Shown here piece after piece: positions 1 to 43,374 of a DNA stretch of 64,000 nucleotides. The stretch comes from an uncultured Candidatus Saccharibacteria bacterium. Lineage in GTDB: Bacteria > Patescibacteriota > Minisyncoccia > Phycocordibacterales > UBA918. Both the position numbers and the translations under genes were made by a program. A model generated the notes under the pieces. That model was not told where the DNA came from and searched no databases. It saw nothing but the letters and a program-made list of their open reading frames with translations. Position 1 is the stretch's first letter. Every line of letters begins with the position of its first letter. Where the stretch lies: the NCBI GenBank assembly GCA_964350645.1, contig CAYGJY010000001.1:399939-463938 (forward strand), read 5' to 3'.

Positions 1-1095
1 GTTGCCTGCCTCGTCAAATGCTTCAATAATCACCGTATGATACCCTGGCTCTAGTTCAGGCAAAGCTATCGTACTGCTGCCAGTTTCATCAATATATTCG
101 TACGGCTCATCACCATCAATTTTTACTGTAAAACGCTTTACTTCTGAAGTTTTATCGACAATAGTCAGCTGCAGAATTTGAGACGGATTAGACAAATCAG
201 CCCCTTCTACTAAAGCAATGTCAAATTTTTCAGGTTTACCAGTGTCAACCGCTAAGCGATAGTGTGTAATAGTGCCCCAACCATCTTCATTTTTAAATTG
301 AATGTGAAAATAAGAAATACCTTCATCAAGATCAGAAATTTCGATTTCAGAAATTGGTGTTTCGTACACTTTAGTCGGCACCGAACTTGGGCTACTACTC
401 AAAAGTGTTCGCACCGCAGTTACTCCAGCTGGTAGAGTCCAGTTGAGCGTGGCGGTCGTTTCTCGTGACCAGCCAGCCGGATCAGGGTGAGATTGTGAGG
501 TAATCTTGGGTGCGGAAGGAGTATTGGCAGGCGGAACATATTCAATCACCTCAGGTGCTGCTGGCACTTCTGCAGCAGCGATAGTGAATGCGGCACTCCC
601 CATACTTGAAAGGACATTGGTGCCACGACCATCAGCTGCAAGTGCTGAACCGCTAGAGAAAGACACTTTTGCATTACCAGCACTGACAGCTCGAAACGAT
701 ACATTCATAATGCCACCAGCTGATCCAGTGTAGCCAGCTGGTGAACCCCCACCAAAAGTGATCTTTCCTGAGGCATTAGAGAAGGTCGGTTCAACGGTCC
801 AGAGATTAAAAATTGTACCCTTTGAAATACCGACAACCTGCAATTTCTGGGGGTCATATGTCAAACTACCCTCTGCGGCATTAACAGGTTGACCTGCAGT
901 ATTGAGTCGAACTTGCACTGAAAAGGTACTGCCCACAGTTTGTACACCAGTTTGAGGACTAACTGAAAGTGTTGCAGCATCTGCAACTGACGCAACAAAA
1001 AGTACCAAGCCAGCCGCTAACACGAACAACACTTGGCAGAGTATATATCGACTGTTATTAGATGTACGCACTAAATTATTCTTCATCATACTCAT
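1..1095 (-). CDS. Cohesin-like domain surface protein, N-terminal part only (C-terminus runs off the window start); paralog of 32068..33597
   Basis: Not in the ORF track because it is truncated. Manual reverse-complement translation from ATG at 1095 gives MSMMKNNLVRTSNNSRYILCQVLFVLAAGLVLFVASVADAATLSVSPQTGVQTVGSTFSVQVRLNTAGQPVNAAEGSLTYDPQKLQVVGISKGTIFNLWTVEPTFSNASGKITFGGGSPAGYTGSAGG... The signal peptide and cohesin-like block are collinear with 32068..33597 (SPASGSFTAGQTF...VNAVEAKLSFDPAVLSVV...SLWTTEPAFSNSAGTIEFGGGSP). It overlaps the stop of the upstream gene by about 20 bp. Confidence 0.6.
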   Translation of the reverse strand, partial: MSMMKNNLVRTSNNSRYILCQVLFVLAAGLVLFVASVADAATLSVSPQTGVQTVGSTFSVQVRLNTAGQPVNAAEGSLTYDPQKLQVVGISKGTIFNLWTVEPTFSNASGKITFGGGSPAGYTGSAGGIMNVSFRAVSAGNAKVSFSSGSALAADGRGTNVLSSMGSAAFTIAAAEVPAAPEVIEYVPPANTPSAPKITSQSHPDPAGWSRETTATLNWTLPAGVTAVRTLLSSSPSSVPTKVYETPISEIEISDLDEGISYFHIQFKNEDGWGTITHYRLAVDTGKPEKFDIALVEGADLSNPSQILQLTIVDKTSEVKRFTVKIDGDEPYEYIDETGSSTIALPELEPGYHTVIIEAFDEAGN

Positions 1096-2140
1096 CTATT
1101 AGCTCAACTGCTTCAATTGTGGTACTAGCTCGTTTTCGGATTCGGCGACGGAGGAACCACACGATTAAACCAAGTAACCCAAGTAGCAATACAATCGACA
1201 GAGTTAAGATAGCTGCGAAAGTTATTTGATCAGCCATACTCTTAGTCCGAAGTGATTCGTCTGGTACCAACGTAGCAACGTATTGATTACCGGCTTTATC
1301 GAAAGCACGAACTCGGATAGTACTATTAAGTGACTGATCTTTGAGTAGGTACGGACTACGAGCAGTGATCCACGGTGTATCGGTACCTCCCCAGGCAAAA
1401 AGATTTAATTGTTCCAATGGTTCTTCAATAATTTCATAATGATCAATCCCTGATTGTTTATCAGAAGTATTGAAAACTACGTAGTAGCGGCCAGCATAAA
1501 TTGAGCGATCCGAATTCAAAGAAATTGTAAATGGATTTGGTGGTGCAGTATCATCACTGATTCGCTCCTGCCATTCGTCGTTCACAGAACCAGTTGGGCG
1601 CGTGTTGACAAGAATATTAGCCTCAATGGTGCGTAATTGTGCCGGAGTGCCAGCTCCATCATTTAGAAGCACAGCTGTTTCTGAAGAAAATGCAATTTGA
1701 GCGACTGGATCAACATCCTGTGCTCCAATGCGCAGGCCTGGAGCTTGAAAAATTATCTCGGCGATTGTATTCGTGAGTCGTGGATCACCTTCAATTCTCC
1801 CACAGTAACCATTTGGAATTCCGCCGGCAAACGTTATGCGCTGATTTTTTTTATCGATAACTGGTTCCTCAACCCAGACTGGAAAAATAGATGCTCCGAG
1901 CGAGATATCTACTGGTGAAATGTTTTCCGGGTACGTAATCACACCATCAATAGCATTGATGCATTCACCATCATCTGTATCAATTCTAACTGCTACTGCA
2001 ATGGTATCGCCAGGATCGATTTCTGCCTCGCGTGGATCAAGATACAGCGTGGCAGCTTCAACAGAAGTAGTCAGGGTAACAAAAAATACAAGTAAAATGC
2101 CCGAAATTAGAACTCTCATTGCTTTAAGTATATCAACCAA
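1076..2140 (-). CDS. Secreted cohesin-like domain protein with C-terminal TM anchor and basic stop-transfer tail (RRRIRKR) plus a short acidic cytoplasmic tail
   Basis: 354-aa ORF with an N-terminal signal peptide and LYLDPREAEIDPGDTIAVAVRIDT...INAIDGVITYPENISPVDISLG...ITFAGGIPNGYCG. This has the same β-sandwich pattern as the other cohesin-like genes here. The C-terminus FAAILTLSIVLLLGLLGLIVWFLRRRIRKR is a hydrophobic helix followed by basic residues. Confidence 0.6.
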   Translation of the reverse strand: MVDILKAMRVLISGILLVFFVTLTTSVEAATLYLDPREAEIDPGDTIAVAVRIDTDDGECINAIDGVITYPENISPVDISLGASIFPVWVEEPVIDKKNQRITFAGGIPNGYCGRIEGDPRLTNTIAEIIFQAPGLRIGAQDVDPVAQIAFSSETAVLLNDGAGTPAQLRTIEANILVNTRPTGSVNDEWQERISDDTAPPNPFTISLNSDRSIYAGRYYVVFNTSDKQSGIDHYEIIEEPLEQLNLFAWGGTDTPWITARSPYLLKDQSLNSTIRVRAFDKAGNQYVATLVPDESLRTKSMADQITFAAILTLSIVLLLGLLGLIVWFLRRRIRKRASTTIEAVELIDEYDEE

Positions 2141-2192
2141 TGTGACAAAAAAAATGATCAGCTTGTGTATACAAAATTAATAGAAACGAAAA

Positions 2193-2217
2193 ACCCCTCT
2201 CGTGGTGGGAGATAGGG
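2193..2217 (-). terminator. Imperfect hairpin followed by a T-run on the minus strand, downstream of the 2246..3403 gene
   Basis: aaaCCCCTCTCgtggtgGGAGATAGGGcttt gives one bulged stem. On the minus strand it is followed by GTTTTTCGTTTC. Confidence 0.3.
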
Positions 2218-2245: not shown

Positions 2246-3403
2246 TTAGAACGTAGGCGTTGCTACGTAGGTGAGTGTGGCTTCGTAGTCATCACCAGCT
2301 TCTTGCAAAGCGGTAATTTGTACCTTATAGCCAACATCTGCAACTCCAACTCCGTTTCCAGAGGTAATTCCAGCTGCTGGACCATTGTGGGCCATCACTA
2401 CTCGTGGGCTCGTACTGGCTGCGATCCAGGTATCAGAAGCAAAATCTGCAGTCCGAACACCATTGGTGCTCGTGTCGCTTGATGTTACTCCCCAGTGACC
2501 ATAGGTCTCATCAAAACCAATCGTTGCCGCTGGCGCCGCCCAAGCGCCTGGTGTATCGGTCTCAACTCCATTGTTGAAGAGATCGATATCTGCTCCAGTT
2601 GAAGACAATAACGTATCATCAACTTGTACTGTGACAACATACCCTTGCTTAGCGTTTGTGTTTACTACAAGCCGCTGTGCGGACGTTGTAGCGTTGTCAC
2701 CTCCGGCTAGAAGTGTACCAAACCTAATTTGAGTAGGTGTCGTTGTACCAGTTGTAGTGGTACCGTTAACTGTTTGTCCTCCTCCAAGACCAAGCACTGA
2801 GAATTCGAATTGAGTGTCAATACTAGCGCTGACTAGAACATTTTCTAGAATCATTACTCGTGTTGCACCAATATCTCCTTCTGAAGTAGCAATATTGATC
2901 TCGTAAGAACTGGTTGCTGGGTTAACAATTTGACCGTTCCCCGTTCCACCAAAGGTGGCGTTGGTACCGATTTCAACTGTGACGGTTGTACCCGTTGCAA
3001 TTGTTTCTGTACCACTGGTGAAGACAATGCCAAATGTTGAGGTTGAAACCCCCCAGGTGGCTCCTGACGGTGAATCTGCAAGTGCATAATCAGTCGTCGT
3101 AGCTAAGTCGATATCGCCTGCGTCAATGTTTGACAAGTCGAAATCTGACGTGCCATCTGGGAAAGTAATTGTAATGGTGTCACCATTACTGACTGGTGTC
3201 CCTTCATCTGGGATCGTGAAAGTGATCGTATGATTGGACACCACATCCGGTGCTGAGTCAGAAAGTACATCACTGACTTCAGTTAGACTTGCAGCTTCCG
3301 AAAAACGGAGTGACGGCAAGCCAAGAGACCATAATAGGACTGCAAGGCCAGCAATCGCTGCAACAGCTTGGAGTACTCCGACGGATTTTTCCGATCGAAA
3401 CAT
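2246..3403 (-). CDS. Secreted Thr/Gly-rich surface protein with a WxL-like C-terminal domain (paralog of 43420..44568)
   Basis: 385 aa with a signal peptide and T/G/S-rich repeats. The C-terminal ...ETYGHWGVTSSD...ITALQEAGDDYEATLTYVATPTF is collinear with the paralog ending ...ITALQEAADDYSAILTYIATPTF. The terminal D-Y-x-(A/G)-T-L-T-Y-(V/I)-x-T-P pattern resembles the second WxL/YxL motif of Gram-positive WxL-domain proteins. Confidence 0.55.
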   Translation of the reverse strand: MFRSEKSVGVLQAVAAIAGLAVLLWSLGLPSLRFSEAASLTEVSDVLSDSAPDVVSNHTITFTIPDEGTPVSNGDTITITFPDGTSDFDLSNIDAGDIDLATTTDYALADSPSGATWGVSTSTFGIVFTSGTETIATGTTVTVEIGTNATFGGTGNGQIVNPATSSYEINIATSEGDIGATRVMILENVLVSASIDTQFEFSVLGLGGGQTVNGTTTTGTTTPTQIRFGTLLAGGDNATTSAQRLVVNTNAKQGYVVTVQVDDTLLSSTGADIDLFNNGVETDTPGAWAAPAATIGFDETYGHWGVTSSDTSTNGVRTADFASDTWIAASTSPRVVMAHNGPAAGITSGNGVGVADVGYKVQITALQEAGDDYEATLTYVATPTF

Positions 3404-3683: not shown

Positions 3684-4802
3684 CTAACCAGTCCAGTTGA
3701 AAAGCAAAATTGAGAAGTCTTCAATACCAACATTACCGTTACCGTTGATGTCTGCCGGCGGATTTGAATCACCACCTGGAGTTTGCCACCAAAACAACAA
3801 AATTGAAAAGTCGATCAGATCTACTTCCCCGTCACGATTAAGATCTGACGGGGTTGTGGCTCGCCCTTCTACTCCTACAAACAATGTGAGAGCTGTACTG
3901 AAGCTGCTCTCAGTTGTTAGTGCACCGGTACCCTGGACATACCGAGCTTTAGCAATATACTCCGCTGGACGTAAATCTGACGTCGAATAAGCAATTCCCC
4001 ATGTCCCGTTAGCCGCAGCGTCAAGTCTCGCAGCAACGTCATTGTTGATATACAACTGTACCTGACTGTTAGGGGCAGCCTGACCACTGAAGACAATAGT
4101 ATCACCTGGGTTAATTTCAACATTATCAGCTGCAATTGTTGGTGGCAATAATAACCCTCGCAGATTTGTTACGGCTCCTTGGGTAACATCGAAAGTAGTG
4201 TTGTAGGTGATTGAGCGTACTCCATTAACATCTGTGGACCAAAACCCCATTGTAGCGGCTCCTGGGGACGTCTCAATTGAAAATTCAAACTCTCCTCGAC
4301 TGTTAGCATTCACTCGACCAACCGCTTCTGCATCAAGAATAATATTAACTTGACGATTGGGATACGCGATACCTTCGACACTGATAGATGTGTCGCCAAA
4401 GTCAACGCTACTACCACCTCCACCCCCTGAACCACCTCCCGATGATCCTCCCCCGCCAGACCCAGCTGGTTCAATCGTACAGTCAGCCCCACAAAAATCA
4501 CCATCTTCATTGTTGCCGTCATCACATTGCTCACTAAAAATTGTTTGCAAAATACCATCACCACAATACGGTCCATACGAACAAATTGGAGTGCATTGTC
4601 TACCAACAATAGTTGTACTGTATACACCAGTTTCACCTGGTACATCACATTCTTCTCCAGTCTCTACTAGTGAATTTCCACAGTTAGTCACTTGTAGTGA
4701 CGTAGAAGCTACGCTCATTGTTTGAGCGTTAGAAAAATGACTTGGATGTGCCACACCAAGTAATACCAGTACGACACTGAAAACTAGTACAAACAATTTC
4801 AT
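3684..4802 (-). CDS. Secreted protein: Myxococcus-type Cys-rich repeat, Gly/Ser linker, Ig-like domains, C-terminal type-I dockerin
   Basis: 372 aa with a signal peptide. YCGDGILQTIFSEQCDDGNNEDGDFCGADC matches the CGDG...E.CDDGN...DGC...C repeat. A GGGGSSGGGSGGGGGSS linker follows. The C-terminal DLNRDGEVDLIDFSILLFWW...ADINGNGNVGIEDFSILLFNW is a duplicated Ca-binding dockerin segment. Confidence 0.7.
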   Translation of the reverse strand: MKLFVLVFSVVLVLLGVAHPSHFSNAQTMSVASTSLQVTNCGNSLVETGEECDVPGETGVYSTTIVGRQCTPICSYGPYCGDGILQTIFSEQCDDGNNEDGDFCGADCTIEPAGSGGGGSSGGGSGGGGGSSVDFGDTSISVEGIAYPNRQVNIILDAEAVGRVNANSRGEFEFSIETSPGAATMGFWSTDVNGVRSITYNTTFDVTQGAVTNLRGLLLPPTIAADNVEINPGDTIVFSGQAAPNSQVQLYINNDVAARLDAAANGTWGIAYSTSDLRPAEYIAKARYVQGTGALTTESSFSTALTLFVGVEGRATTPSDLNRDGEVDLIDFSILLFWWQTPGGDSNPPADINGNGNVGIEDFSILLFNWTG

Positions 4803-4805
4803 AGC

Positions 4806-5744
4806 TTATACCTTACGTTTTTTGCGGCGCTGAGAGTAGAGTAATGAGGCTGTGATAAGGAAAATTGTTAGCAATGGCAAGATAATAGAGATCATGTGTG
4901 GTAATGATAAGCCAAGAAGACCATACCCAGCAGTCTGCAGTGTTCCGTACGGGACAATATTTAGAGTTACTTCCCCTTCCTGTTTCAGCTCTTCTTGATT
5001 ATAGATTTCATAACGAGCTAAATAACTCCCCGATGGTAATCTAGTCGGCAGCTCAGAAAGCACATCTTCAGTCCCAAATGGATCGACTTTTTTAATTCTA
5101 TTTGTGTGTTCAGTCTCTTCAAGCAGAATGGTTCCCGTTTGATCATAAATTTTAAAAACCACTTTTGATGGTGCCACTGGTACATTACCGATATTTTCGA
5201 TTAACATCTTGAACCGAATCTTTCCAGGGAAGTATAACCAAGCAAATTTATGTCCTTCATTTAGATCACCAATGTTAATTCGTCGCACACGGAAATCTAA
5301 AATTTCTTTGTCAATAACATTGAGACTAATATCAACCTGTGCCCCAAGCGAAATACTCACAGAACCACTTCCATTTCCATCGTCTGCTGGACCAGTCTTA
5401 ATACGTAGTTTCCCCTTATAGTTTTTGAACTCAGCATCGTCAGGAATTTTAACCCGCACTGTCATTGGCACCTTCTGTTCACCTGCAGGGAGTAAAAAGG
5501 TATCGCCTTCGATAATTTCGATCCAATCTGATACTTCGGGCGCATCTATACTAATCGTTGCCTTAAGAGCCTTATTAGGATCACTACGTACAAGCAAAAT
5601 TTGTTGCTCATAAACTGAGTTTCTCGTTAGGCTAGTATTTTGAAAATATGGCGGCGTTACACCAAAACCTGCGTGTGCCATTGGAGCACTCAAAATCTGC
5701 AGGATGCATACAAAAAATAAAGGTACTAGTAATTTCCTTACCAT
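4806..5744 (-). CDS. Signal-peptide protein with β-sandwich ectodomain and C-terminal TM anchor (RRKKRKV tail); DUF916/CscA-like architecture
   Basis: The ORF-track start is 5882, but the ATG at 5744 gives MVRKLLVPLFFVCILQILSAPMAHA, a clean signal peptide, and avoids overlap with the upstream gene. GFGVTPPYFQNTSLTRNSVYEQQILLVRSDPNK resembles the DUF916 N-terminus. It ends in a TM helix plus a basic tail. Paralog of 42224..43321. Confidence 0.5.
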   Translation of the reverse strand: MVRKLLVPLFFVCILQILSAPMAHAGFGVTPPYFQNTSLTRNSVYEQQILLVRSDPNKALKATISIDAPEVSDWIEIIEGDTFLLPAGEQKVPMTVRVKIPDDAEFKNYKGKLRIKTGPADDGNGSGSVSISLGAQVDISLNVIDKEILDFRVRRINIGDLNEGHKFAWLYFPGKIRFKMLIENIGNVPVAPSKVVFKIYDQTGTILLEETEHTNRIKKVDPFGTEDVLSELPTRLPSGSYLARYEIYNQEELKQEGEVTLNIVPYGTLQTAGYGLLGLSLPHMISIILPLLTIFLITASLLYSQRRKKRKV

Positions 5745-5856: not shown

Positions 5857-7719
5857 TTAATTACCCCACGTAGAGGTAGCACTGACTACTGCCGTAAAGA
5901 CGTTCTCACCGAAGTAGTTACCAGCAAAGGTAATCGTACCTGGGATTGCAATACCCCAGAAAGTATCGCGACTAGACGGAGTTGTAGTTGCTTGCGACTT
6001 TGGAATCAAAGACTCAAGAACCTGTGGTGTGGTTGAAGCATTGAGTGTAAAGCCAGAACCATAAGAGACTGCTGAAGTTGCGTACTGCTGCTGATCGACT
6101 GGAATAGTTGATGTGGATGATACTCGACATGGGCTACCTGGAACAAAGCTATTACACATTGACTCTCCGTACAGCTCTTGGTTTAAACCAGTGTTACCAG
6201 TAGTTTCTACAGTTGTAGAGGCATTTAGGTTTTGTGAATCGGTACCAGGTTCTAGCGGTCCATACGGGATTGATGTGTCGAGGAGGTTAAGAGCCAGCAA
6301 GCTATTAAGTTCAATGTTGGTGTTTGTACTTGGTACAAATTCACTACTGGCAGCATCATCATCGATACCTGAAACAGCGGCCAACCAACTCTCGTCGAAA
6401 TAGAATGCATTTACGTCAGTTGGATCAGCGATGTACCAAAGTGGGAACGTACAATCGAACTGTAATGTGGTATCGGTATCATCTGCTGCATACGTACAGC
6501 TAGTAGTAGAAGCAGTACATTCTAGATTCCACGTTGTTGTTGCTACCTGACTTGGATAACAATTATTGGCATTATACTCTCCTGCAGAATCACAAGAAGT
6601 AGTACCAACCCCAGACCGGAATACTGAAGCTGTATAATCAACAATTTCGTCATAGGTATTACCTCCAACTGCATCACAGCTATTAGCGTCCGTTACCTGG
6701 AAAGAAAGTAGGAAACCTGTTGTTTCTCCTCCCTCTGTAACAAGATCTATGTCTAGACCATCGTTTAGTATGATCTGAGCCCCAGTGATAGTAGGAGCGA
6801 CGTTATTGACAGTAAGAATAGAATCAGTACCTTGCGCAACTCCAATTGATGGATGCCCGTGATTGTCAACAATGAAACCATAAGCTGGGTAATCATCATC
6901 CTGCATCACAGCTCCTAGTTGGTAAGTTGCGGTTGCGTTTGTACTGACAGGAACTGTGGTTGATGCTAATTCAATACCATTACATCCTAATGAAGAAGTG
7001 GCGTTAAAGCTTGGTGTACTACAGACATATAAACTGACAGTGTCTTGCGTGCCGGTTGTGTCTGCGTCAGTTGAAGTGGCATAAAAGATTACTGTTGCGC
7101 CAGGATCAGCCGGTGAATCATCCCAATAACCAGTGAACGTTGGTCGATGATTTACGTTAAACGGTGAAGACGTAGAACCAGTTCCTTGCTGTGGAGTCAC
7201 GTTACAACGTGCGTTTGGCACTGAGTCACAAACCCAAGCGTACCAATCATTTTCTTCGGCAAATGCTTCAGTTGTTGTAGTGGCTGCCGTTGCTTGTGCG
7301 CCCGTGGTAGTGAGTCCTGAAACTGCCCATAGTACATCAGTGCCTCCACAGGTTGGTGGACCTCCGTTAACGGCAGTTGGTGTTGCGTTACCGTCACAGA
7401 TGAGCAGATAATAATCTTCAAGACTTGGGTCAGATGCTACTGCTGTCCAGGTCATGACGTCACCGGAGTTTGTCGGACTTGAGGTTGAAGACTCTGGTGA
7501 CTCAAAAGGACCAGTATCAAAAGATGGTGGTGTGTTAAGTACCGTGACTGTTGTCTGGGCTGTGCTCGAACTTTGCGCGATCGCTTGCTTGAATTCTTTG
7601 GCACCGATGTTTAACAAGAAGATAAACGTAAACACTAGTACTCCAGCAAAAGCGCTAAGAATAGAAATCTTTCCGGCTGTTTGAATATAGGTTTGAAACT
7701 GCTCTTTGTTGTACGACAT
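5857..7719 (-). CDS. Type-II (N-terminal signal-anchor) Cys-rich, Thr-rich surface protein
   Basis: 620 aa. The N-terminal ISILSAFAGVLVFTFIFLLNIG is a TM helix. There are many Cys in an otherwise T/S/G/D-rich ectodomain. The C-terminal motif FWGIAIPGT is shared with the giant protein C-terminus, which ends YWGIAIPFGT. Confidence 0.6.
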   Translation of the reverse strand: MSYNKEQFQTYIQTAGKISILSAFAGVLVFTFIFLLNIGAKEFKQAIAQSSSTAQTTVTVLNTPPSFDTGPFESPESSTSSPTNSGDVMTWTAVASDPSLEDYYLLICDGNATPTAVNGGPPTCGGTDVLWAVSGLTTTGAQATAATTTTEAFAEENDWYAWVCDSVPNARCNVTPQQGTGSTSSPFNVNHRPTFTGYWDDSPADPGATVIFYATSTDADTTGTQDTVSLYVCSTPSFNATSSLGCNGIELASTTVPVSTNATATYQLGAVMQDDDYPAYGFIVDNHGHPSIGVAQGTDSILTVNNVAPTITGAQIILNDGLDIDLVTEGGETTGFLLSFQVTDANSCDAVGGNTYDEIVDYTASVFRSGVGTTSCDSAGEYNANNCYPSQVATTTWNLECTASTTSCTYAADDTDTTLQFDCTFPLWYIADPTDVNAFYFDESWLAAVSGIDDDAASSEFVPSTNTNIELNSLLALNLLDTSIPYGPLEPGTDSQNLNASTTVETTGNTGLNQELYGESMCNSFVPGSPCRVSSTSTIPVDQQQYATSAVSYGSGFTLNASTTPQVLESLIPKSQATTTPSSRDTFWGIAIPGTITFAGNYFGENVFTAVVSATSTWGN

Positions 7720-7796: not shown

Positions 7797-9005
7797 TTAT
7801 TCGTACCTGATTGCATCAAGTGGATTAAGAGTCGACGCACGCTTAGCTGGGAAAATACCGGTTAGATACCCCACTACAGCCGAAAATAGTGCAATAAATG
7901 TGAGGAAGCCAAGTGGAAATGAGAACAATGAGACTGACTGTCCTCCAAATTGTCCCGCCACAATATTCAACATCAAGTTAATTGAAAGCCCTAATGTAAC
8001 CCCCATCACAATGCCGCTGATGCCCCCTAAAAAACCAACCACAATTGATTCTGAAACGAACAAATATTTAATATCAGTGGGAGCTGCGCCGATCGTACGC
8101 ATGATCCCAATCTCCTTAGTTCGTTCGAGGAGTGTCACTGTCATAGTGTTAAACATACCAATCGCTGACACGATTAAAGCGATGCCACCAAACGTACCCA
8201 GAACCGCTTGAACACCTTGAAAAATTTTTGATGCTTGTTCAACTGTCTTAGAGAGAGCCGTTACCCGATACCCTTCAGCGATCAGTTTCTCTTCTACCAA
8301 TGGTAGAGCTTCATTTGTTGCCACACGCACCTGAATTCTTTCGTACTCTTCAATACCAATGTGAGTTCGGAGCTCTGGAAGCATCATCAGCGCATTTAAC
8401 ACACCTTCTTCTTTAGTAATACCTTTAACGGTATATTCTTTATCGATGAAAATTTCATTGATGTTTTCGGTGCCATCATTGGCCGGTACCAGGATGCGAA
8501 ATTTTACCTTTTGGCCGACAAACTCTTCAGCATCTTCAATCCCAAAGAGCTTGAGTACCGCTGGAGAGAGCATAATACTCGTTGTATCACCTGCATCTTC
8601 ATCGACAAACACCTCCCCCACTTCGGCAGTTAAACCCGAATAACGCAAATACGGCGGCTCAGCTCCCTGAAGAAATACGTTACCGGTAAGACCTTTATAG
8701 GTGACCAAGGCCGGGAAACGAGCTAAGGGCGCTGCGTCTAAAATGTTTTCATCAAGCTCAAATAAGCGGACAGTATCATTGGTTAACTTCAAATTTTGTG
8801 CTCCAGTAGCAGAAACACCAAGCGAAAGCAAAGTTTCTCCAAAGACAATCTGTTCGAGAATAATTTGTTGCAACCCAAACCCAAGACCAACGAGCACCAC
8901 CACAGCACCAGTGCCAACACCCATACCAAGAATGGTTAGCCAGGTACGAAGTGGGTTAGTTTTGAAGTTTCGAGTCGACAAGCGAGCGAGATCTGATAGC
9001 AACAT
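7797..9005 (-). CDS. ABC transporter permease of the FtsX/MacB (ABC3) family
   Basis: 402 aa with TM1, a ~230-aa extracytoplasmic domain and three C-terminal TMs. The FtsX-family signature region is GGIALIVSAIGMFNTMTVTLLERTKEIGIMRTIGA. It is adjacent to the ABC ATPase gene with a 2-bp gap. Confidence 0.8.
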   Translation of the reverse strand: MLLSDLARLSTRNFKTNPLRTWLTILGMGVGTGAVVVLVGLGFGLQQIILEQIVFGETLLSLGVSATGAQNLKLTNDTVRLFELDENILDAAPLARFPALVTYKGLTGNVFLQGAEPPYLRYSGLTAEVGEVFVDEDAGDTTSIMLSPAVLKLFGIEDAEEFVGQKVKFRILVPANDGTENINEIFIDKEYTVKGITKEEGVLNALMMLPELRTHIGIEEYERIQVRVATNEALPLVEEKLIAEGYRVTALSKTVEQASKIFQGVQAVLGTFGGIALIVSAIGMFNTMTVTLLERTKEIGIMRTIGAAPTDIKYLFVSESIVVGFLGGISGIVMGVTLGLSINLMLNIVAGQFGGQSVSLFSFPLGFLTFIALFSAVVGYLTGIFPAKRASTLNPLDAIRYE

Positions 9006-9007
9006 AT

Positions 9008-10330
9008 TTATGATTTATAGCTTACATCAACACCTTGGGCGATTAATTTCTCAAAATATCGAGTGAGTGAATCAGCTTCTTTCTCATCAAGTGCTAGCCC
9101 ACCAACCGTCACCCCTTTTGACATTTTTTCGTTAAAGTCGCTCACATGAATGACACCAGTCACCCGGTCTGCAATAATATCAACTAGGTTCTCATTTTGC
9201 TTTTTGGAAAGTTTAATACGCTTTGACTGCAGGAGGTGGTCACGCAAACGTTCGGCTAGCTGATGCTGCGAGAAGAATGAGTGCTCATCGACTTTTTTAG
9301 ATCGAAAACGTTTGATGTCACTTGCTTGGTCAATGATCTTGGTAGCAGTCGATGCCATTTGCAATGCAACTTTGTGATTGATTTCTACACCGCCAGCTTC
9401 GTATTTTGTTTCTAACATTTTAACAAAGTCAGATTTTTGGATTCGTCCATTGATATATAGATTGAGAGCTTTTTCGAGACGCATTAACTGGTCATACGTA
9501 TAATCCTGAGTCAGGTAATTCACCATACTTTTAACACGAAGCGTGTCGACTGAATCATACGGAAATAGACGCGCTAACTGTTCGAGCTCTGTTACTATCG
9601 TCTCCCCTTCTTTAACTGGTTTGATTTGCTTGCGTTGAGGGTTTACCACTTCACGGACCACAAAACCATCTTTCAAATAATACACTCGATGAGCGTAACT
9701 CAAGTGGGCAGCATTATGGGAAACCATAATAATCGTCCGTCGATCGAACGTGTTAATTTCATCGATTTTATCCATCACCTGCTGTGTTGACACTGAATCA
9801 AGGTTTCCAGTCGGTTCATCCGCCAAAAGAATTTTTGGATCGTTAATCATCGAGCGAGCCACAGATACACGCTGTTGTTGACCTCCCGAAAGCATCGCAG
9901 GAATTTTGTGTGATACATGTCCTACTCCAAAACGATCGAGCAGCAACTGTGCCCGGCGTTCACGCGTGGCTTTATCACCATTACAAAAAATCATTGGCAG
10001 AGCCACGTTGTCGAGCACTGATAGTGACTTAATCAAGTTGAATGACTGGAAAATAATTCCCATTACATAACGCTGAAAGTACACTCGCTCCTGAGGTGGG
10101 TAGGAATAAATGTCATCACCTTTGATAAGCAAGGTACCCTCTCCCGGTGGCAAGGAGCCCTGAATCGAATACATCAACGTCGACTTACCCGAACCAGAAG
10201 CACCAAACAAAATAATGTATTCACCTTCGTAAATATCAGTATTAACCCCTTGCAAGGCTTTAAATTCATTGCTCTTTCCCTTGTTATAAATGATCGAAAG
10301 ATCACGACAAATAATAAACGGCTTCGCCAT
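9008..10330 (-). CDS. ABC transporter ATP-binding protein (MacB/LolD/FtsE-like NBD) with a ~200-aa C-terminal extension of unknown function
   Basis: Walker A is GASGSGKST. The ABC signature is LSGGQQQR and Walker B is ILLADEPT, with an H-loop SHN. AAGGAG sits 8 nt upstream of the ATG. The C-terminal extension (~aa 230-440) has no recognisable motif. Confidence 0.85.
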   Translation of the reverse strand: MAKPFIICRDLSIIYNKGKSNEFKALQGVNTDIYEGEYIILFGASGSGKSTLMYSIQGSLPPGEGTLLIKGDDIYSYPPQERVYFQRYVMGIIFQSFNLIKSLSVLDNVALPMIFCNGDKATRERRAQLLLDRFGVGHVSHKIPAMLSGGQQQRVSVARSMINDPKILLADEPTGNLDSVSTQQVMDKIDEINTFDRRTIIMVSHNAAHLSYAHRVYYLKDGFVVREVVNPQRKQIKPVKEGETIVTELEQLARLFPYDSVDTLRVKSMVNYLTQDYTYDQLMRLEKALNLYINGRIQKSDFVKMLETKYEAGGVEINHKVALQMASTATKIIDQASDIKRFRSKKVDEHSFFSQHQLAERLRDHLLQSKRIKLSKKQNENLVDIIADRVTGVIHVSDFNEKMSKGVTVGGLALDEKEADSLTRYFEKLIAQGVDVSYKS

Positions 10331-11982: not shown

Positions 11983-14900
11983 TTAGTCCCCAGTTACGTA
12001 GAAGGTATTTACCCCACTGTGCGGATTACTCTTTGTACCAAACGGGATAGCAATTCCCCAATAAATCTCGTCAGCAACTGGCGGTGAGACGGTGATTGGT
12101 TTTGACAAATCGACTTCAATCAACTGCGGAGTCGTACTTGGAAGATTAAAGCAGTCAACACATGAACTGTACGTAAATGTCGACGTTGAGAAAATTTGCT
12201 GAGTAGCTGGGATAAATGATGTCAAACCATCGGTCAGATCAGTTCCTTCGATTTCAATGTCGATGGCAGCGTTACCAATGTTGGCAACAGTGGTTGATGC
12301 ATTGGTCGATCCGGTGTCATCGAAGACAGCCAGCGCTCCGTAGTCGATATCATCATCAACTTCAAGAGCCCACATTGTTAGTAGATCAATACCTGGACTG
12401 GTCGCCAAATTACTCGCACCACTCTTATCAACCACTTCCAAGAAGGCATACCATAACTCTCCACCGTCGGTATCCGTCGGGTCAGCATGGAAGGCAAAGT
12501 CAGCGTAACACTGTAATTCACAGCTATTACCACTACAGTTCGTAAAGCTACATTGTGGTGTTGTGGTAGCAATATAACAGTTGTTATTGTCCGCCGTACA
12601 TGCGGCAGTGGCTGTCGTAGTAAACATAGTGGAGGTAGCCGCATCTAGATCGGTGTAGCCGTTGAGGTCAGTCACCGTCGTGGTTGCAAAGACTCTGGCA
12701 GTTCCGCCTGGGTTCAAGATAATATTCTGACCAAGGTTGAACTGAATTGGGCCAAATGTTGGAGGGAACTGCAGTGTCAACTCTGCGACTCGAGCGTATG
12801 AATCAAGTACTGAACCGTTATCGGTTACTCGGAAACAGTACGCCTCATCTGCTGCATTAGCAGTGACTACCACAGCATACTCAACTTCTGTATAGTCACC
12901 CTGGTTAATAGAAAGACCAGCAGTCTTATTCGATGGATCTTCAACAAATGCACCGGCACTGAAATCACCAATCGTACCCGTAAGAAGATCTACCGTGGCT
13001 GCACCGTTAGCCACAGTGGTAGAGGTCGCCATACAGATCGCTGAACTACCGCATGATGCGTCAACTGGCACTGCAGCGTAACTGCCACCAGAGACTGCCG
13101 CACAGGTTGGTGCGGCTCCTTTGCCAGCAAACTCAAGAGTCAGTAGCTGACCAGTCAAATCGAGACCACCGTTTTCAATAGCCAGTCGCAGGCGTTGTGG
13201 TACACCGATAGTAACCGTATCGAGAGTAGTATTTTGTGCTTTTGCCCAACTTGCACCACCGTCAGTCTGTTCAACACCAAAGTAAATAGTTGGCTCTTGA
13301 TTGAGTCGTGGTCGAGACAAGAAGCTGTCCCAGCCACCGTTATTTGTCCAGTACGTAAAGCCGTATCCTCCAGATGAATAGGTTGAATCAGCCGCTGACA
13401 CCGATGCCAATAGTGAACCTACTGGATCAAAGACCGTAACGTCAATCGAATCATCGGTCTGCCAATCAATTTCTACTTCATACCAACCAGTACCTGCAGT
13501 AGTGAAGGCAGCTGATGAAGTTGCCAACCTAACAACTGGTGTGAAACTGTCATTGCGGCGAGCATTTTTCACCAACGACACTCGCTCAGTACCGAAGAGC
13601 TCCATACACACACCATAGTTCTGGAAGCCAGATACCGGTGCCTGCACACCGAAGAGCGTACATATCTCGTCAGAGTCACCATCATCAACATCAATATACT
13701 GACGGTAGCGGATAATCTCACCCTGACTGACCGTCTGATCAAAGCGGGACATACCACCATTTGAGAAGTTTCCTGGGACAACCGCACTGAGTCCATATGA
13801 ACCACCAAAATTAAATGCTGCATTTGTCTGGAAATCACTTGTTTGGCCACTGTATTCGGAAATATTATTGTCCTCAAAATCATCCGCAGCGATAAATGTA
13901 GCGGTACTCGAACTGGTGGTGTTAACTGCCACGTTATCGTAGTACATATAAATACTTGTTACTGTGTCGCTCAGTAACGTCGGTACTGACACCCACACAA
14001 GAGCTTCAGTACTAGCGGTGAAACTTTCAACCCAATACGGAATCTCAGTTGTGCCATCGTCACTCGTGAAGCGGAGATCTTCAAAGTCACTCTGCATGTT
14101 GGCATCATATGGAATAGTAATTTCAATCGCTGCATCAGTGTAGGTTGATGCATCGCGGTTACGTAGACGAATCTGCTGTCGCTTATCCCAATCAGTATCA
14201 AACCACTCATCAGCTGGTACGCCAAGACCTCCATCATCATTGCGCCAACGATATTGAGTCTGTTCAATTAGTTGACAATCACTATCGTCCCAACGGATGG
14301 ATCCACAATCATCACTGACGTCACCATCATTATCAAACGCCTCACCGTAGAGTGATCCGCCACCATTTCGGAACGTCCAGGCACTGGTGGTGGTTGCTTC
14401 AAGATCGACGTTAGTACCAGAGAAACCTCCGTTATAGAAGTACGTGCCATCAATAATCAACGACGCATTCGCATCAAGCGCACTGGAGGCGAGCGAAATC
14501 ACTGCGCCAGTACTTGTGCTAAGTGTGAAGGAACCATTGTCGAGCAAGATAACAGTTGTGGTACCGAGTAGATTAAGCCCAAAATCATCCATTCCACTTA
14601 TATCAAAGTATTCTGCTTCGAAGGTACCACCAGCAAAAGTAAATCCATATGTGCCAGTATCAGACTGTACCGTCGTGGTTGCCGCATCAACACCAACAAT
14701 CTCAAGACGACCGTTATTACCAATACTGATACTTGAAGTCGCTGCATCAACAAAAGTTACCGTAACTGGCCGCGCGCTTGCACCAAGTGTCGAACCATCG
14801 AAATTCTGGTCATTATTCCAAAACTCAGTCGTTGTATCAATATTAAAGTCACCATAAATGAAGAGATCCCCGGGGGTGCCCGCATGATCTTGTGAATACC

Positions 14901-17900
14901 ACGAAGTAGGAGCTGTTAGTTTCGGTGTCGTCGCAGAACTATCCCAGCTACGAATATTGGTGTTAGCGGCAATTTCTAGTGTACTGTACACGTCACCTCC
15001 AGAGTTTTTAGTGTTAATACTGTAGTCAGTACCAGACAAGAGGCGCAAAGTTGAACTGAGCCACGTCGTATTAGCACCGCCAACCGCATTAGTGAAGACA
15101 CCACCAACTGACAATGTTTGGTTAGTATCGAGGGTAAATTGATTAGCACTGCTCAAGCTAAAGTTGTTAGTGACAGTAGCGGTTTGGAAAATCCAACCAC
15201 CATTAAGTCCGCCGATCACCACATTATAAAATTCATTTGCACCCGGATTGACTGTTTCTCCAAGGTCACTTGAATTGAAGAGAATGGTTCCAGTAGCAGT
15301 ATTCATAATACCGTTTGTCGCATCAAGTGAACCGCCAATTGCTAATGTTGTTGACGCAACGTTGAGTGTTCCACTCGCAATAGTGAGTGAACCGGCGAGA
15401 TTTACCTCAACATCGGTCATAGTGAATTCTGCTCCACCTACGATATCAAGTGACCCCAATGACTCATTCGAAAGTGTTAGGTCAGCTGTACCGGTGTTTT
15501 GTGCGAGTGCCAGTGTTCCACCATTGGCAGTGATCGTATCGAGCACAATAAAGTTTGCCCCAACTACTAGGGTGTCACTTGGCAACGTCACAGCTCCAGT
15601 AGTGACCACGAAACTGTCAGTTGCTGTCGCATTAACATCACTGATAGTCCAACTACCTGCTCCGTTGAAGACTACCTCATTGGCATCATTACCGCCGAAG
15701 GTCACTGTTTCACCACCAGTACCAGACGTAAACACAAGCCGACCACCGTTGGCATCAAACGTATCACTATTTACAAATGAACCAGCGACAGTCGTGGTGG
15801 CCGTTGGTAACGTCAATGATCCGGCAGTAATTGTGAGATCATCATTGGTAGTAAGCGTCACGTTAGTCACTGCCCAATCCCCAGCACCATTAAAGACCAC
15901 TGTGTTAAAAGCCTGATCGTTGGTGTCAATTAGCCGACCAGCATCATCAGTTGTAAACGTAAACGTAGAGTTGGCTGCTTCAAAGACTGCATCAGTACCA
16001 AAAATGAGACTGCCGCCAATAGAATGACTCTCGCTGCCAGCTGCGGTGAAAATTGCATCCGCTCGCGCTTCAAGTGTACCGTCATAGGCTGCACCCGCTC
16101 CGCCACCGCTTAAGGTAATATTTCCTCCTGGGGCAAACTCCTTCGTGTCCCAAATCAGCAACTTTGCATTGGCCGGTAATGTCAGAGTATCGGTACCAGC
16201 GTCGATCGCCGTAAATGGAATATCAGCATCGTTTGAACTATCAAAGACTGCCATATCTTCAATGGTAATCGGATCAGTGTTAGCGTGACGGACGATCACG
16301 TGGTTTTCATAGAGATCCATATCAGTGATTGATGTAATTGGATCAATCGTAACAGTAGATGCTTTTTCAGCTTCACCATTGATGTAAAGTGTCAGCGTAT
16401 CGTTAGCGCTGAAAGAAATGTCTGAAATACTATATGAACCATCAGCACTGGAGCAAGATGACGAGGCTTGCTGAGCCAAACTACCCGCAATCGCCAAGAC
16501 AATGTTAGTTGTACTATCATCACAAGCTGTCGAAACAGAACTTTCGTTGGACTGATAGACATTACCAGAAATTGTAATGATGGCAGCTGAGTCATCCCAA
16601 ATAATTTCACCCGGATCACCGGTATCAAGGTCATAATCTTCACCATCACGATTGCCACTGTGTTCGGTAAAGCGCCAGGCACTAAGCGAACTGCCTAGTA
16701 ACTCGACGTTGATTGCCCCAGTCACACCTGTATCAGCATTGAAACTACTACCACTAAAATTTTTGGCTGGGTTGGCATTAATAACTGATCCCTGGACACT
16801 AACCATACTGGCACTATTAATCTCAGCCAAGAGGTCGAGATTAGCAAAACCAGACACTATTGGTGTGCCAGTAAATTGCACACCATCGCTATCGATGTTT
16901 CGAACTAAGACTTCATTCCAATTGAAAGCCGTAGTGCCCCCAACAATCAGGGCATACGTGCCCGAACCTTGATTTTGAATCGTCGTGGTAGCAGTACTGG
17001 TACCAATCGCGCGCAGCGCACCAGCTGTCCATGATGCACTACCACCACCCTCAACATACACATCAACTTGCCGCTCATTACCACCAGTAAGATCAGTACC
17101 ATCAAAGTCAATTGCATAACTCCAATAATCACTAAAGGTGCTATTTTGATAATCACCAAAGATATAGAGATCCCCGGTTATATCAGTATGATCCATTGAG
17201 TAAAGTGATCCACCATTTGTAGTTACACTGCCGACAATTGAGTTCCACATACGCGGATGGGTACTGGCTCCAACAATAATATTTTCGTACACGTCAGTAG
17301 TGGTACTGGCATTGATTTCATAAGCTTGACCACCGTAGAGATAGAGAGTTGAGCCAGTCCAGGTAGTAGCTCCTCCACCGACTTCATTACTAAATGTTCC
17401 ACCAACGGCAAATTGAGTGCTCGGATTAACGGTTACAAGTGACGTTGATGCAAAGACTACATCATTACTTGACGTTGCACTTTCGGTGAAAGTAGCTAGC
17501 CCAGTTCCAGCCAAGGTGAGGTCGGCAAAGTCACTGCCGCCAGCAGCAATCGTGTGCGCTCCAGTTCCATCAAAGTACACCAAGCCACTATTAGCATTAA
17601 ACGTACCAGTGTTGGTGAAGCTGCCAGAAAGCGTCAGCGTATTACTATCACTCGCTGACAACGTGCCGTTTGCCCCAATTCGAACGTCACCCAGGACCGT
17701 CATGACTGGATCACTCGTGTTGAGATTAGCAGTCGTTGGTGCCGTACCAGCAACTACCAAATCATTTTGAACTAGTACACCCAGCGCTCCGAAACTATAT
17801 ACGGGCGTGCCAGCGCTACCAGCAATTGTCAGATTGTAATACGGAGTCGAAAGGATATTAGCCGATGCTACTCCACCATATGTAACCGTACTCGTGTCTT

Positions 17901-39586: not shown

Positions 39587-40171
39587 ATGAACTGCACGTA
39601 TATCACTGGTAACCCTGAGAAAGCCAAGCGCTTCAGCAGACACCTCGGTATGGAGTTGGCACATCAAGCGCTTGATATCCCTGAGATTCAGTCGCTGTCG
39701 ATTGATGAGGTGGTGGAAGCGAAAGCGCGAAGCGCCTTCGCTTCCCTAGGCTCACCGGTAATTGTTGAGGACACCGCCCTCACCTTCACTGCTCTAGGTC
39801 AGCTCCCTGGCACATTTATTAAGTTCTTTTTAGACTCAATGTCTATCGAGGAAATCACACAGCTAGTCCCAGCAGATAATCGAACTGCCTACTGTGAAGT
39901 AGCTATTGCGTATTACGACGGTGACCGTCTAGAGGTTGCAAAAAGTCATGTTCCTGGAACAATCGCGGAAGCACCCCGAGGAACTGGTGGCTTCGGCTGG
40001 GATGCAATCTTTATTACCGACGAACATCCTCATCAGACCATGGCTGAACTCTCAGAAACTGAGTATGAAACCATATATGCCAAAACGATAAAACCGTTTA
40101 CCGCCCTACGCAAAATATTAGATTCACTGTCTAAAGATCAAATACACAGCGAAAACCAATTGCACCACTAG
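39587..40171 (+). CDS. Non-canonical purine NTP pyrophosphatase (Ham1/RdgB/ITPase family)
   Basis: 194 aa. MNCTYITGNPEKAKRF matches the family start (ATGN.gK). VEDTALTFTALGQLPGTFIKF matches DDSGL.v.ALgG.PG.YSARf. EAPRGTGGFGWDAIFI matches EP.GTGGFGYDPIF. This is the only clear plus-strand gene inside the array, and its 3' end overlaps 40131..40952 by 41 bp. Confidence 0.75.
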   Translation: MNCTYITGNPEKAKRFSRHLGMELAHQALDIPEIQSLSIDEVVEAKARSAFASLGSPVIVEDTALTFTALGQLPGTFIKFFLDSMSIEEITQLVPADNRTAYCEVAIAYYDGDRLEVAKSHVPGTIAEAPRGTGGFGWDAIFITDEHPHQTMAELSETEYETIYAKTIKPFTALRKILDSLSKDQIHSENQLHH

Positions 40172-43321: not shown

Positions 43322-43374
43322 TCAAAACCATCAAAACAAACTGATGTACATAAGCGTAAATACACTAACACAAC

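What the first reader, a model, noticed from the sequence alone, without database searches (positions are those of the whole stretch)
2246..3403. Paralog pair with conserved C-terminal D-Y-x-A-T-L-T-Y-(V/I)-A-T-P-T-F motif: WxL-like surface proteins
2246..3403 and 43420..44568 share a signal peptide, a Thr/Gly-rich body and an almost identical last 30 aa (ITALQEA.DDY.A.LTY.ATPTF), plus an internal GHWG(V/W)T motif. The C-terminal pattern resembles the second WxL/YxL motif (…Y.GTLTW.L.D.P) of the WxL peptidoglycan-binding domain of Enterococcus/Lactobacillus Csc clusters. Those clusters also encode DUF916 proteins with a C-terminal TM anchor. Here each WxL-like gene has a DUF916-like neighbour: 4806..5744 near the first and 42224..43321 adjacent to the second.
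Basis: inference. Interest (0 to 1): 0.6.

Follow-up and report, generated by a model that had tools for sequence, protein, structure and literature searches.

The report
Patescibacteria surface proteins paired with DUF916 anchors
Two related genes encode secreted, very acidic, threonine-rich surface proteins of an unannotated family restricted to ultra-small Patescibacteria; each lies beside a true homologue of the membrane anchor used by Gram-positive "WxL" surface complexes, but the proteins themselves are not detectably WxL domains.

Summary
Both genes are on the minus strand, 46% identical over their full length, and share a signal peptide, GHWG and a …LQEAxDDYxAxLTY[VI]ATPTF end. The family is large (2,449 representatives at 50% identity) and has no Pfam or NCBIfam model. 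All 80 retained genome loci come from Patescibacteria MAGs. The C-terminal domain ends the protein in 261 of 263 members, always with F or Y.

The neighbour claim is right. The 42224..43321 product passes Pfam's DUF916 (WxLIP_PGBD) cut-off and aligns to real WxLIP proteins at E 8e-29. The 4806..5744 product does so at E 1.7e-13.

The WxL claim is not supported. No member hits PF13731, mature A and B contain no W-x-L, and profile comparison gives 4% probability. Only the last β-strand looks similar, and the structural neighbour lists of the two models do not overlap.

Both paralogs sit in gene clusters conserved across these MAGs, about 40 kb apart. One relative is a DUF916–membrane helix–module fusion. 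Larger relatives carry lectin or propeller domains in front of the module.

Best reading: a new surface-display module that works like WxL, held by a WxLIP-type anchor. That is a new variant of a known kind.

The parts
2246..3403 (-). Paralog A, 385 aa (type I orthologue group). Signal peptide is about aa 1-38 (nt 3290..3403), the N-terminal Ig-like module about aa 39-189 (nt 2837..3289), and the family-specific C-terminal beta domain aa 190-385 (nt 2249..2836).
   Evidence: ORF; BLASTP; alignment; AF2 model pLDDT 79.9 with two beta domains; domain HMMs
2249..2323 (-). C-terminal signature of A: VQITALQEAGDDYEATLTYVATPTF-COOH. It forms the last beta-strand (aa 374-383 in the model) and ends in the invariant aromatic residue.
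43420..44568 (-). Paralog B, 382 aa (type II orthologue group), with the same architecture as A
42224..43321 (-). WxLIP/DUF916 homologue, 365 aa: signal peptide, two Ig-like domains, then two C-terminal hydrophobic helices separated by an Arg/Lys-rich loop. It ends …LLALFA.
   Evidence: PF06030 29.0 bits > GA 27.3; 19/21 orthologues; hhalign to real WxLIPs E 8e-29; tblastn to annotated DUF916 genes
4806..5744 (-). Divergent WxLIP/DUF916-like protein, 312 aa, with a signal peptide and a C-terminal membrane helix
   Evidence: no Pfam hit but hhalign to 42224 family E 1.7e-12 and to real WxLIPs E 1.7e-13
43374..43400 (-). Intrinsic-terminator-like hairpin plus U-run between B and its DUF916 gene
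   Evidence: sequence; -16.8 kcal/mol, z -6.2; same feature in 26/28 type II loci versus 2/41 and 3/27 for control genes
2186..2217 (-). Hairpin plus U-run just downstream of A
   Evidence: sequence; -16 kcal/mol, z -3.3; found in 12/47 type I loci by a strict scan
41777..42205 (-). 142-aa protein with hydrophobic helices at both ends, a conserved member of the type II cluster
   Evidence: present in 25 loci
3684..4802 (-). Secreted Cys-rich-repeat / Ig / dockerin protein lying between A and the DUF916-like gene; a conserved member of the type I cluster
   Evidence: Dockerin_1 24.3 bits > GA 22.9; TIGR02232 repeat 44 bits > cut-off 20.8; synteny
1076..2140 (-). Cohesin-like protein with a C-terminal membrane helix, immediately downstream of A
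   Evidence: BLASTP E 2e-8 over the region where 32068..33597 hits Pfam Cohesin; synteny
5857..7719 (-). 620-aa Thr-rich protein with an N-terminal membrane helix, member of the type I cluster
7797..10330 (-). MacB-type ABC transporter at the head of the type I cluster: permease at 7797..9005 and ATPase at 9008..10330
   Evidence: MacB_PCD, FtsX and ABC_tran hits; permease 72-83% identical across loci
34145..36049 (-). Third window protein that carries the A/B N-terminal module directly after its signal peptide; it ends in a dockerin
   Evidence: N-domain HMM E 1.5e-15; BLASTP 30% identity, E 8e-6; Dockerin_1 31.7 bits

Best explanation
A and B are the two anciently duplicated copies of a large, unannotated, Patescibacteria-restricted family of secreted cell-surface proteins. 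Each has a Sec-type signal peptide. Next comes an Ig-like N-terminal module that other surface proteins of these bacteria reuse. Last is a family-specific beta domain of about 190 aa that always terminates the polypeptide with …LQEAGDDYxxTLTY[VI]ATP[TV][F/Y]. I infer that the module is a surface-display and anchoring unit. After export it would be held non-covalently at the envelope by the neighbouring membrane-anchored WxLIP (DUF916 plus second Ig domain plus membrane helix) homologue. This is the same logic as the Csc/WxL cell-surface complexes of Lactobacillales, but with a different partner domain in place of WxL. The result would be an acidic, Thr-rich coat and, in larger relatives, displayed lectin or propeller domains. 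Shown here: the family and its conservation, the two-domain prediction, the WxLIP homology of both neighbours, the conserved clusters, a fusion protein and the terminator. Inferred: physical docking to WxLIP, surface location, excess production of B over its anchor, and any wall binding.
For: Family size and absence of any model: 2,449 representatives at E<=1e-3, and no Pfam or NCBIfam hit. All 80 retained genome loci are from Patescibacteria MAGs. The AF2 model has two beta domains and pLDDT 79.9. Its Foldseek neighbours are two-Ig surface adhesins. Both neighbours are WxLIP homologues. Two cluster types are conserved. About 50 loci carry ABC transporter, 620-aa protein, DUF916-like, dockerin protein, A, cohesin-like. 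About 28 carry umuC-like, B, DUF916, 142-aa protein, two FGE-like genes. Both types lie on one contig 36-45 kb apart in six other MAGs (coordinates). The two orthologue groups are distinct: 56-57% identity within, 49% between, and the nearest neighbour is of the same type in 73 of 79. P0343 is a Rosetta-stone fusion of DUF916, Ig domain, membrane helix, loop, signal-like helix and the A/B module; it is encoded by a called gene on a metagenome contig. Larger relatives place Laminin_G_3, LVIVD, Listeria-Bacteroides or Y_Y_Y/fn3-like domains in front of the module, which stays C-terminal. A terminator hairpin separates B from the DUF916 gene in 26 of 28 loci. Published work states that WxLIP binds its WxL partner and is tightly associated with it (PMC10599100, PMC9772566).
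Against: No interaction was tested, and co-location plus a single fusion is indirect evidence. In the type I cluster A is separated from the DUF916-like gene by the dockerin gene. WxLIP homologues on actinobacterial, Deinococcus and Paenibacillus plasmids sit beside varied small proteins, so partner choice is not fixed. The fusion comes from one contig of one sample. The interdomain geometry of the model is uncertain (pTM 0.47). The strictly terminal aromatic residue is not a feature of WxL proteins and is not explained by this model.
Confidence: 0.55

Rival explanations
1. The C-terminal domain is a true but highly diverged WxL domain. The two Trp-x-Leu motifs would be replaced by (Y/F)-V-V in …TNAxNG(Y/F)VVTV… and by Y-[VI]-A in …TLTY[VI]AT…. 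On this reading the clusters are genuine Csc/WxL clusters and the domain binds peptidoglycan.
For: The last strand aligns to WxL motif 2: DDYEATLTYVA against GEYVSTLTWTL, hhalign score 23.2 versus about 11 for reversed decoys. A Pfam-recognised Paenibacillus WxL protein ends …AGTYKSVFTYTATSGI, with Tyr in place of Trp. With relaxed settings the alignment is collinear, matching FG to FG and TNAxNGFVVTV to TDxRGxGxGWxLxV. The strand order of the two AF2 models is broadly similar. Both domains are C-terminal, acidic, follow a signal peptide and lie next to a WxLIP gene (PMC9772566).
Against: None of 32 members hits PF13731 at E<=10. hhalign probability is 4%, and 2 of 30 block-shuffled decoys score as high. 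HMM searches are no better than reversed decoys. Nothing was found against two large-WxL C-termini. Foldseek neighbour lists do not overlap: Ig-like for A, weak jelly-roll-type for WxL. There is one family gene per cluster rather than a small plus a large WxL. From my own knowledge, 'AGxYxxT-hydrophobic-T-aromatic' final strands are common in unrelated Ig-like pilins and adhesins.
Confidence: 0.2
2. A and B are self-assembling structural subunits of an S-layer-like lattice or a fibre built by beta-strand complementation. The invariant C-terminal strand and terminal aromatic residue would be the assembly interface. DUF916 proteins would be accessory factors or merely neighbours.
For: The composition is typical of S-layer and coat proteins: pI about 4, Thr-rich, no Cys, almost no Lys or Arg. 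Conservation is very high for a surface protein, at 50-70% identity across many MAGs. The gene has its own terminator ahead of the accessory genes, as with major-subunit genes. The terminal residue is invariant. BslA, a self-assembling Ig-like coat protein, is among the single-domain structural matches.
Against: No repeat, lattice or polymer evidence was obtained. The AF2 monomer places the last strand in an intramolecular hairpin, aa 351-363 paired with 374-383. The fusion with DUF916 and the larger relatives with the module at the C-terminus point to an anchoring role. This rival is compatible with the best explanation rather than exclusive of it.
Confidence: 0.2
3. The terminal Phe is an outer-membrane beta-signal, A and B are outer-membrane beta-barrel proteins, and the organism is diderm.
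For: The last ten residues alternate hydrophobic and polar and end in F or Y, as OMP beta-signals do.
Against: The AF2 model is two beta-sandwich domains, not a barrel, and matches Ig-like adhesins. The N-terminal module recurs as a soluble repeat, ten times in a 3,077-aa protein and once in a dockerin protein. Every retained locus is from Patescibacteria, which are regarded as lacking an outer membrane; that is established knowledge and was not tested here. The partners are inner-membrane-anchored Gram-positive-type WxLIP proteins.
Confidence: 0.02

Closest known systems
Csc / WxL cell-surface clusters of Lactobacillales and Bacillales (CscA = WxLIP/DUF916-DUF3324-TM; CscB/C = small and large WxL proteins; PMC1534035, PMC9772566, PMC10599100)
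   Same: Both are clusters of secreted proteins built around a membrane-anchored two-Ig WxLIP protein. The partner protein is acidic and carries a conserved C-terminal domain. Larger versions place binding domains in front of that domain. The final strand has a similar motif, (A)G-x-Y-x-x-T-L-T-aromatic.
   Different: The partner domain is not detectably WxL: no PF13731 hit, no Trp-x-Leu, and an Ig-like rather than WxL-like structural neighbourhood. There is one partner gene per cluster instead of a small plus a large WxL, and no LPXTG protein. The partner carries an extra Ig-like N-module. The terminal F/Y is strictly terminal. The host is Patescibacteria rather than Firmicutes. The clusters also include a MacB-type ABC transporter, cohesin/dockerin proteins or FGE-like proteins.
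WxLIP (PF06030 WxLIP_PGBD + PF11797 WxLIP_HBD + membrane helix)
   Same: The neighbours 42224..43321 and 4806..5744 share the signal peptide, both Ig domains and a C-terminal membrane helix. Their lengths (365 and 312 aa) are close to the published 337-365 aa range.
   Different: PF11797 is not hit directly. The conserved NQIDKxxxYFDLK motif is absent. The 42224 family has a second C-terminal hydrophobic helix that ends the protein.
Two-domain Ig-like adhesins of Gram-positive bacteria (MSCRAMM N2-N3 such as Cna, SdrD and ClfA) and BslA
   Same: These are the best Foldseek matches to the A model. Like A, they are secreted surface proteins with tandem beta-sandwich domains.
   Different: TM-scores are low (0.2-0.27 on the query). 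There is no sequence similarity and no LPXTG sorting signal. With almost no Lys, isopeptide chemistry is unlikely.
Cohesin-dockerin surface display
   Same: It operates in the same type I cluster: the 1076..2140 cohesin-like membrane-anchored protein and the 3684..4802 dockerin protein. This parallels the proposed anchor-plus-ligand logic.
   Different: A and B have neither a cohesin nor a dockerin domain.

Membership tests
WxL domain (Pfam PF13731) | Match to the PF13731 profile at or above its gathering score (25 bits) | tested here: not met
   A and B have no hit. None of 32 family members hits at E<=10. Positive controls from Bacillus and Paenibacillus plasmids scored 30-213 bits.
WxL domain (Pfam PF13731) | Two conserved Trp-x-Leu motifs about 70-110 residues apart (PMC9772566) | tested here: not met
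   There is no W-x-L in mature A or B. Candidate equivalents are (Y/F)VV at aa 255 or GHWG at aa 302, and Y-[VI]-A at aa 379.
WxL domain (Pfam PF13731) | Detectable profile-profile homology of the C-terminal domain to WxL proteins | tested here: not met
   hhalign of 263 C-domains against 102 small WxL proteins gives 4% probability, score 23.2, over 21 columns. Reversed decoys score about 11, and 2 of 30 block-shuffled decoys reach 23.2 or more. HMMER is no better than reversed decoys. Large-WxL C-termini give nothing.
WxL domain (Pfam PF13731) | Same fold as the small or large WxL domain | tested here: inconclusive
WxL domain (Pfam PF13731) | Domain at the C-terminus of a protein with an N-terminal signal peptide | tested here: met
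   The domain is terminal in 261 of 263 members. The N-terminus is signal-peptide-like.
WxL domain (Pfam PF13731) | Encoded in a cluster with a WxLIP (DUF916/DUF3324/TM) gene | tested here: met
   B is adjacent to one in the type II loci. A is one gene away from one in the type I loci.
WxL domain (Pfam PF13731) | Cluster contains at least two WxL proteins, one small and one large (PMC10599100) | tested here: not met
   There is one family gene per cluster in nearly all loci; L065 has a tandem pair.
WxL domain (Pfam PF13731) | Non-covalent binding to peptidoglycan | not testable with these tools
   This needs biochemistry.
WxLIP (DUF916 + DUF3324 + TM), for the neighbours | PF06030 (WxLIP_PGBD) at or above its gathering score | tested here: met
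   The 42224..43321 product scores 29.0 bits against 27.3, and 19 of 21 orthologues hit. The 4806..5744 product has no direct hit but is linked by hhalign at E 1.7e-12 and 1.7e-13.
WxLIP (DUF916 + DUF3324 + TM), for the neighbours | Second Ig-like domain (PF11797) following the first | tested here: met
   There is no direct PF11797 hit. The hhalign alignment to real WxLIPs nevertheless spans residues 47-285, which covers both domains.
WxLIP (DUF916 + DUF3324 + TM), for the neighbours | N-terminal signal peptide and C-terminal membrane helix | tested here: met
   Both are read directly from the translations. No dedicated predictor was run.
Outer-membrane beta-barrel protein with C-terminal beta-signal | Beta-barrel fold | tested here: not met
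   AF2 predicts two beta-sandwich domains, and Foldseek matches Ig-like adhesins.
Outer-membrane beta-barrel protein with C-terminal beta-signal | Terminal aromatic residue after an alternating strand | tested here: met
   The last residue is F in 235 and Y in 26 of 261.
Outer-membrane beta-barrel protein with C-terminal beta-signal | Diderm host with the BAM machinery | not tested
   Only Patescibacteria MAGs carry the family. Their lack of an outer membrane is taken from the literature; no genome-wide BamA search was run.

The most novel reading that the evidence does not exclude
The A/B family is the major envelope coat protein of Paceibacteria-type Patescibacteria. It would be displayed on WxLIP-type membrane anchors through its invariant C-terminal strand. 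WxLIP-plus-partner display would then be an ancient monoderm surface system shared by CPR bacteria, Firmicutes and Actinobacteria, with WxL and the CPR domain as interchangeable, or very distantly related, partner modules. The conserved 40-kb island bounded by the two paralogs (giant protein, cohesin/dockerin pairs, MacB transporter) would be the attachment apparatus these episymbionts use on their hosts.
Probability: 0.2. Interest if true: 0.7.

Novelty: new variant of a known kind. Interest (0 to 1): 0.5.

Why it matters
Patescibacteria (CPR) are mostly uncultured ultra-small bacteria thought to live attached to other cells, and little is known about the proteins on their surface. This result defines a very large, strongly conserved surface-protein family that has no database model. 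It links that family, by conserved gene order and one gene fusion, to homologues of the WxLIP anchor. That anchor has so far been described in the WxL clusters of Firmicutes; full-text searches found no paper linking WxL or DUF916 clusters to Patescibacteria. The work gives concrete pairs to test for binding: B with the 42224..43321 product, and A with the 4806..5744 product. It also shows that WxLIP anchors can work with partners other than WxL, and it flags a conserved 40-kb envelope island as a candidate host-attachment locus.

Tried and rejected
Direct WxL detection failed. This covered Pfam and NCBIfam scans of A, B and 30 relatives, hmmsearch in both directions with reversed decoys, and hhalign with shallow and deep profiles, with global and relaxed settings and with decoys.

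A profile for the large-WxL subtype could not be built. The search with a Bacillus large-WxL C-terminus returned one protein, and single-sequence comparisons gave nothing.

PDB sequence searches found no solved relative of the family or of WxL.

A Deinococcus DUF916 neighbour ending …KLTGTF looked like a possible bridge. It did not match the family HMM.

Rfam and tRNA scans of the window found nothing.

No source gives the family a meaningful name. Listed names are 'hypothetical protein', apart from one 'acyl-CoA hydrolase' label.

Literature searches found no useful paper.

I considered and rejected an FGE (formylglycine) target motif in A and B: there is no Cys and no S/C-x-P-x-R (read from the translations; Cys content). 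I also rejected the outer-membrane barrel reading.

Full report
**Observation**

Both ORFs exist at the stated coordinates, but on the minus strand: 2246..3403 encodes 385 aa (A) and 43420..44568 encodes 382 aa (B). They are 46% identical over their whole length, E 7e-82.

- The last 30 residues match at 21 of 30 positions.
- GHWGVT and GHWGWT are present in A and B respectively.
- The mature proteins have 16-18% Thr and 10-11% Gly, pI about 4.05, almost no Lys or Arg, and no Cys.

**The family**

A search of 5.8 billion proteins gave more than 1,700 relatives, most of those listed about 380 aa long. None had a Pfam domain or a meaningful name. An exhaustive profile search of 1.84 billion representatives gave 2,449 hits at E<=1e-3 and 417 at E<=1e-30. 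Pfam and NCBIfam have no model for it.

A scan of one genome per species confirmed 256 relatives, and all 80 retained loci are Patescibacteria MAGs labelled Paceibacteria, Parcubacteria, Kaiserbacteria, Nomurabacteria and similar.

In a 32-sequence alignment G-x-W-G (with His at least 90% conserved), S-x-x-G-A-x-I-x-x-F and the terminal L-Q…D-Y…L-T-Y-x-A-T-P-x-F are invariant. In 263 relatives the C-terminal domain ends the protein in 261, and the last residue is F (235) or Y (26).

**Architecture**

AlphaFold2 on this alignment gives pLDDT 79.9 and pTM 0.47. It predicts a signal-peptide helix, a confident beta domain at about residues 40-185, and a second beta domain at about 197-385 whose last hairpin is 351-363 paired with 374-383.

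The N-terminal module is reused elsewhere. It occurs once in window protein 34145..36049, which ends in a dockerin, and about ten times in a 3,077-aa relative. The C-terminal domain occurs only in A and B within the window.

Foldseek against the PDB returns two-Ig surface adhesins (integrin calf/thigh domains, Cna, SdrD, ClfA, Als) plus BslA and TTHA1873, all with low TM-scores.

**Is it a WxL domain?**

I obtained genuine WxL proteins from plasmid clusters found with the DUF916 neighbour as query, and 120 more by profile search. The comparison results were:

- No member of the family hits PF13731 even at E<=10. The control WxL proteins score 30-213 bits.
- HMM searches in both directions are no better than reversed decoys.
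- hhalign of 263 C-domains against 102 small WxL proteins gives 4% probability. It aligns only the last strand, DDYEATLTYVA with GEYVSTLTWTL.
- That score (23.2) exceeds reversed decoys (about 11), but 2 of 30 block-shuffled decoys reach it.
- Two large-WxL C-termini give nothing.
- A model of a genuine small WxL protein (pLDDT 84) has no PDB neighbour below E 1e-3 and only weak jelly-roll-type matches. None of these is shared with the A model's list.

The resemblance is therefore real at the level of one beta-strand. A Pfam-recognised Paenibacillus WxL protein even ends …TYKSVFTYTATSGI. But domain homology is not demonstrated. A direct structural superposition could not be run.

**The neighbours are WxLIP homologues**

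The 42224..43321 product passes the PF06030 cut-off (29.0 versus 27.3 bits), as do 19 of 21 orthologues. tblastn finds annotated DUF916 genes. hhalign to real WxLIPs gives 99.8% probability, E 8e-29, across both Ig domains.

The 4806..5744 product has no direct Pfam hit. Its family aligns to the 42224 family (E 1.7e-12) and to real WxLIPs (E 1.7e-13). Both have a signal peptide and a C-terminal membrane helix.

**Context**

tblastn of the window's neighbours against the 80 loci shows two conserved cluster types.

- Type I, about 50 loci: MacB-type ABC transporter, 620-aa protein, DUF916-like, Cys-rich dockerin protein, A, cohesin-like membrane protein.
- Type II, about 28 loci: umuC-like gene, B, DUF916, 142-aa membrane protein, two FGE-like genes.

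Six other MAGs carry both types on one contig, 36-45 kb apart, as the window does. Family members split into two orthologue groups that match the cluster types: 56-57% identity within, 49% between, and the nearest neighbour is of the same type in 73 of 79. The V/I before ATP is the only fixed difference.

A stable hairpin with a U-run follows B (-16.8 kcal/mol, z -6.2) and another follows A (-16 kcal/mol, z -3.3). The feature after B recurs in 26 of 28 type II loci, against 2 of 41 and 3 of 27 for control genes.

**Functional links**

P0343 (666 aa) reads signal peptide, DUF916 (28.3 bits), Ig domain, membrane helix, basic loop, signal-like helix ending VQA|AS, then the A/B module. It is encoded by a called gene on a metagenome contig. 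The window's 42224 protein has the same helix-loop-helix tail but stops after it.

Other larger relatives put Laminin_G_3, LVIVD, Listeria-Bacteroides repeat or Y_Y_Y/fn3-like domains in front of the module, which remains C-terminal. This is the arrangement reported for large WxL proteins (PMC9772566).

**Interpretation**

The most likely reading (0.55) is a surface-display module that works like WxL. It would be exported, then held by a WxLIP-type anchor, forming an acidic coat or presenting binding domains.

The rivals are:

- True but very diverged WxL homology (0.2).
- A self-assembling S-layer or fibre subunit (0.2). This is partly compatible with the main reading.
- An outer-membrane barrel (0.02), which is contradicted by the fold prediction and the host lineage.

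Binding, localisation and stoichiometry are inferred, not shown.

**Novelty**

Full-text searches found no paper linking WxL or DUF916 clusters to Patescibacteria. The published WxL and WxLIP surveys describe clusters that are overwhelmingly in Firmicutes (PMC9772566, PMC10599100). I rate this a new variant of a known kind, of moderate interest.

Noticed in passing
window 11983..31959 (-): A single 6,658-aa ORF lies between the two clusters on the same strand. Pfam finds DUF2341 (three matched stretches across the two halves), Laminin_G_3 and a Rha78A-like Ig domain. It is probably a giant surface protein within the conserved 40-kb island.
   Followed up: partly
window 1076..2140, 3684..4802, 32068..33597, 34145..36049 (all -): Two cohesin-type proteins and two dockerin-bearing proteins occur in a Patescibacteria genome. 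32068..33597 hits Pfam Cohesin, and 1076..2140 is its membrane-anchored paralog. This suggests cohesin-dockerin surface display alongside the DUF916 system.
   Followed up: partly
window 34145..36049 (-): This is a third protein that starts, right after its signal peptide, with the same mature N-terminus and Ig-like module as A and B (…DTISDSTPGDYSNHNLEF versus …DVLSDSAPDVVSNHTITF). The conserved start hints at a shared function for the extreme N-terminus.
   Followed up: partly
window 42224..43321 (-) C-terminus; P0343; L086 6001..8001: The type II DUF916 protein ends with a second hydrophobic helix after an Arg/Lys loop (…LLALFA-stop). That tail looks like the signal peptide which, in the fusion protein P0343, continues into an A/B module. 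This suggests the two genes arose by fission or fusion of one gene.
   Followed up: partly
window 36055..36855, 40131..40952, 40984..41793 (all -): Three paralogous FGE-sulfatase-like (SUMF1-type) proteins with hydrophobic N-termini. Two of them are conserved members of the type II cluster. No target motif was found in A or B, and their role is unknown.
   Followed up: no
window 44867..44910: A perfect 20-bp-stem palindromic hairpin lies at the end of the umuC-like gene, just upstream of the long intergenic region that precedes B. It is probably a bidirectional terminator that sets B apart as its own transcription unit.
   Followed up: no
window 44905..46155 and 47937..48374 (-): A UmuC-type Y-family polymerase (IMS domains plus DUF4113) and an S24 peptidase (UmuD/LexA-like) lie nearby. 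The polymerase gene is the conserved upstream neighbour of B in 26 loci.
   Followed up: no
A aa 266-277 (window about 2573..2608, -) and the same segment of B: The loop SSTGADID(G/L/A)F is nearly invariant in the family. Its Asp-rich pattern could be a metal (Ca2+) site. This was not tested.
   Followed up: no
L084 3869..4750 (Deinococcus plasmid NZ_CP140100.1): A 293-aa secreted protein next to a DUF916-like gene also ends in …AGDKTAAVNFKLTGTF-stop, so it has a terminal Phe like the CPR family. It does not match the family HMM.
   Followed up: partly
L065 10064..12512; L078 16005..17857: Some MAGs carry a tandem pair of family genes, or extra weakly similar DUF916-like genes nearby. Copy number of the system therefore varies.
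   Followed up: no
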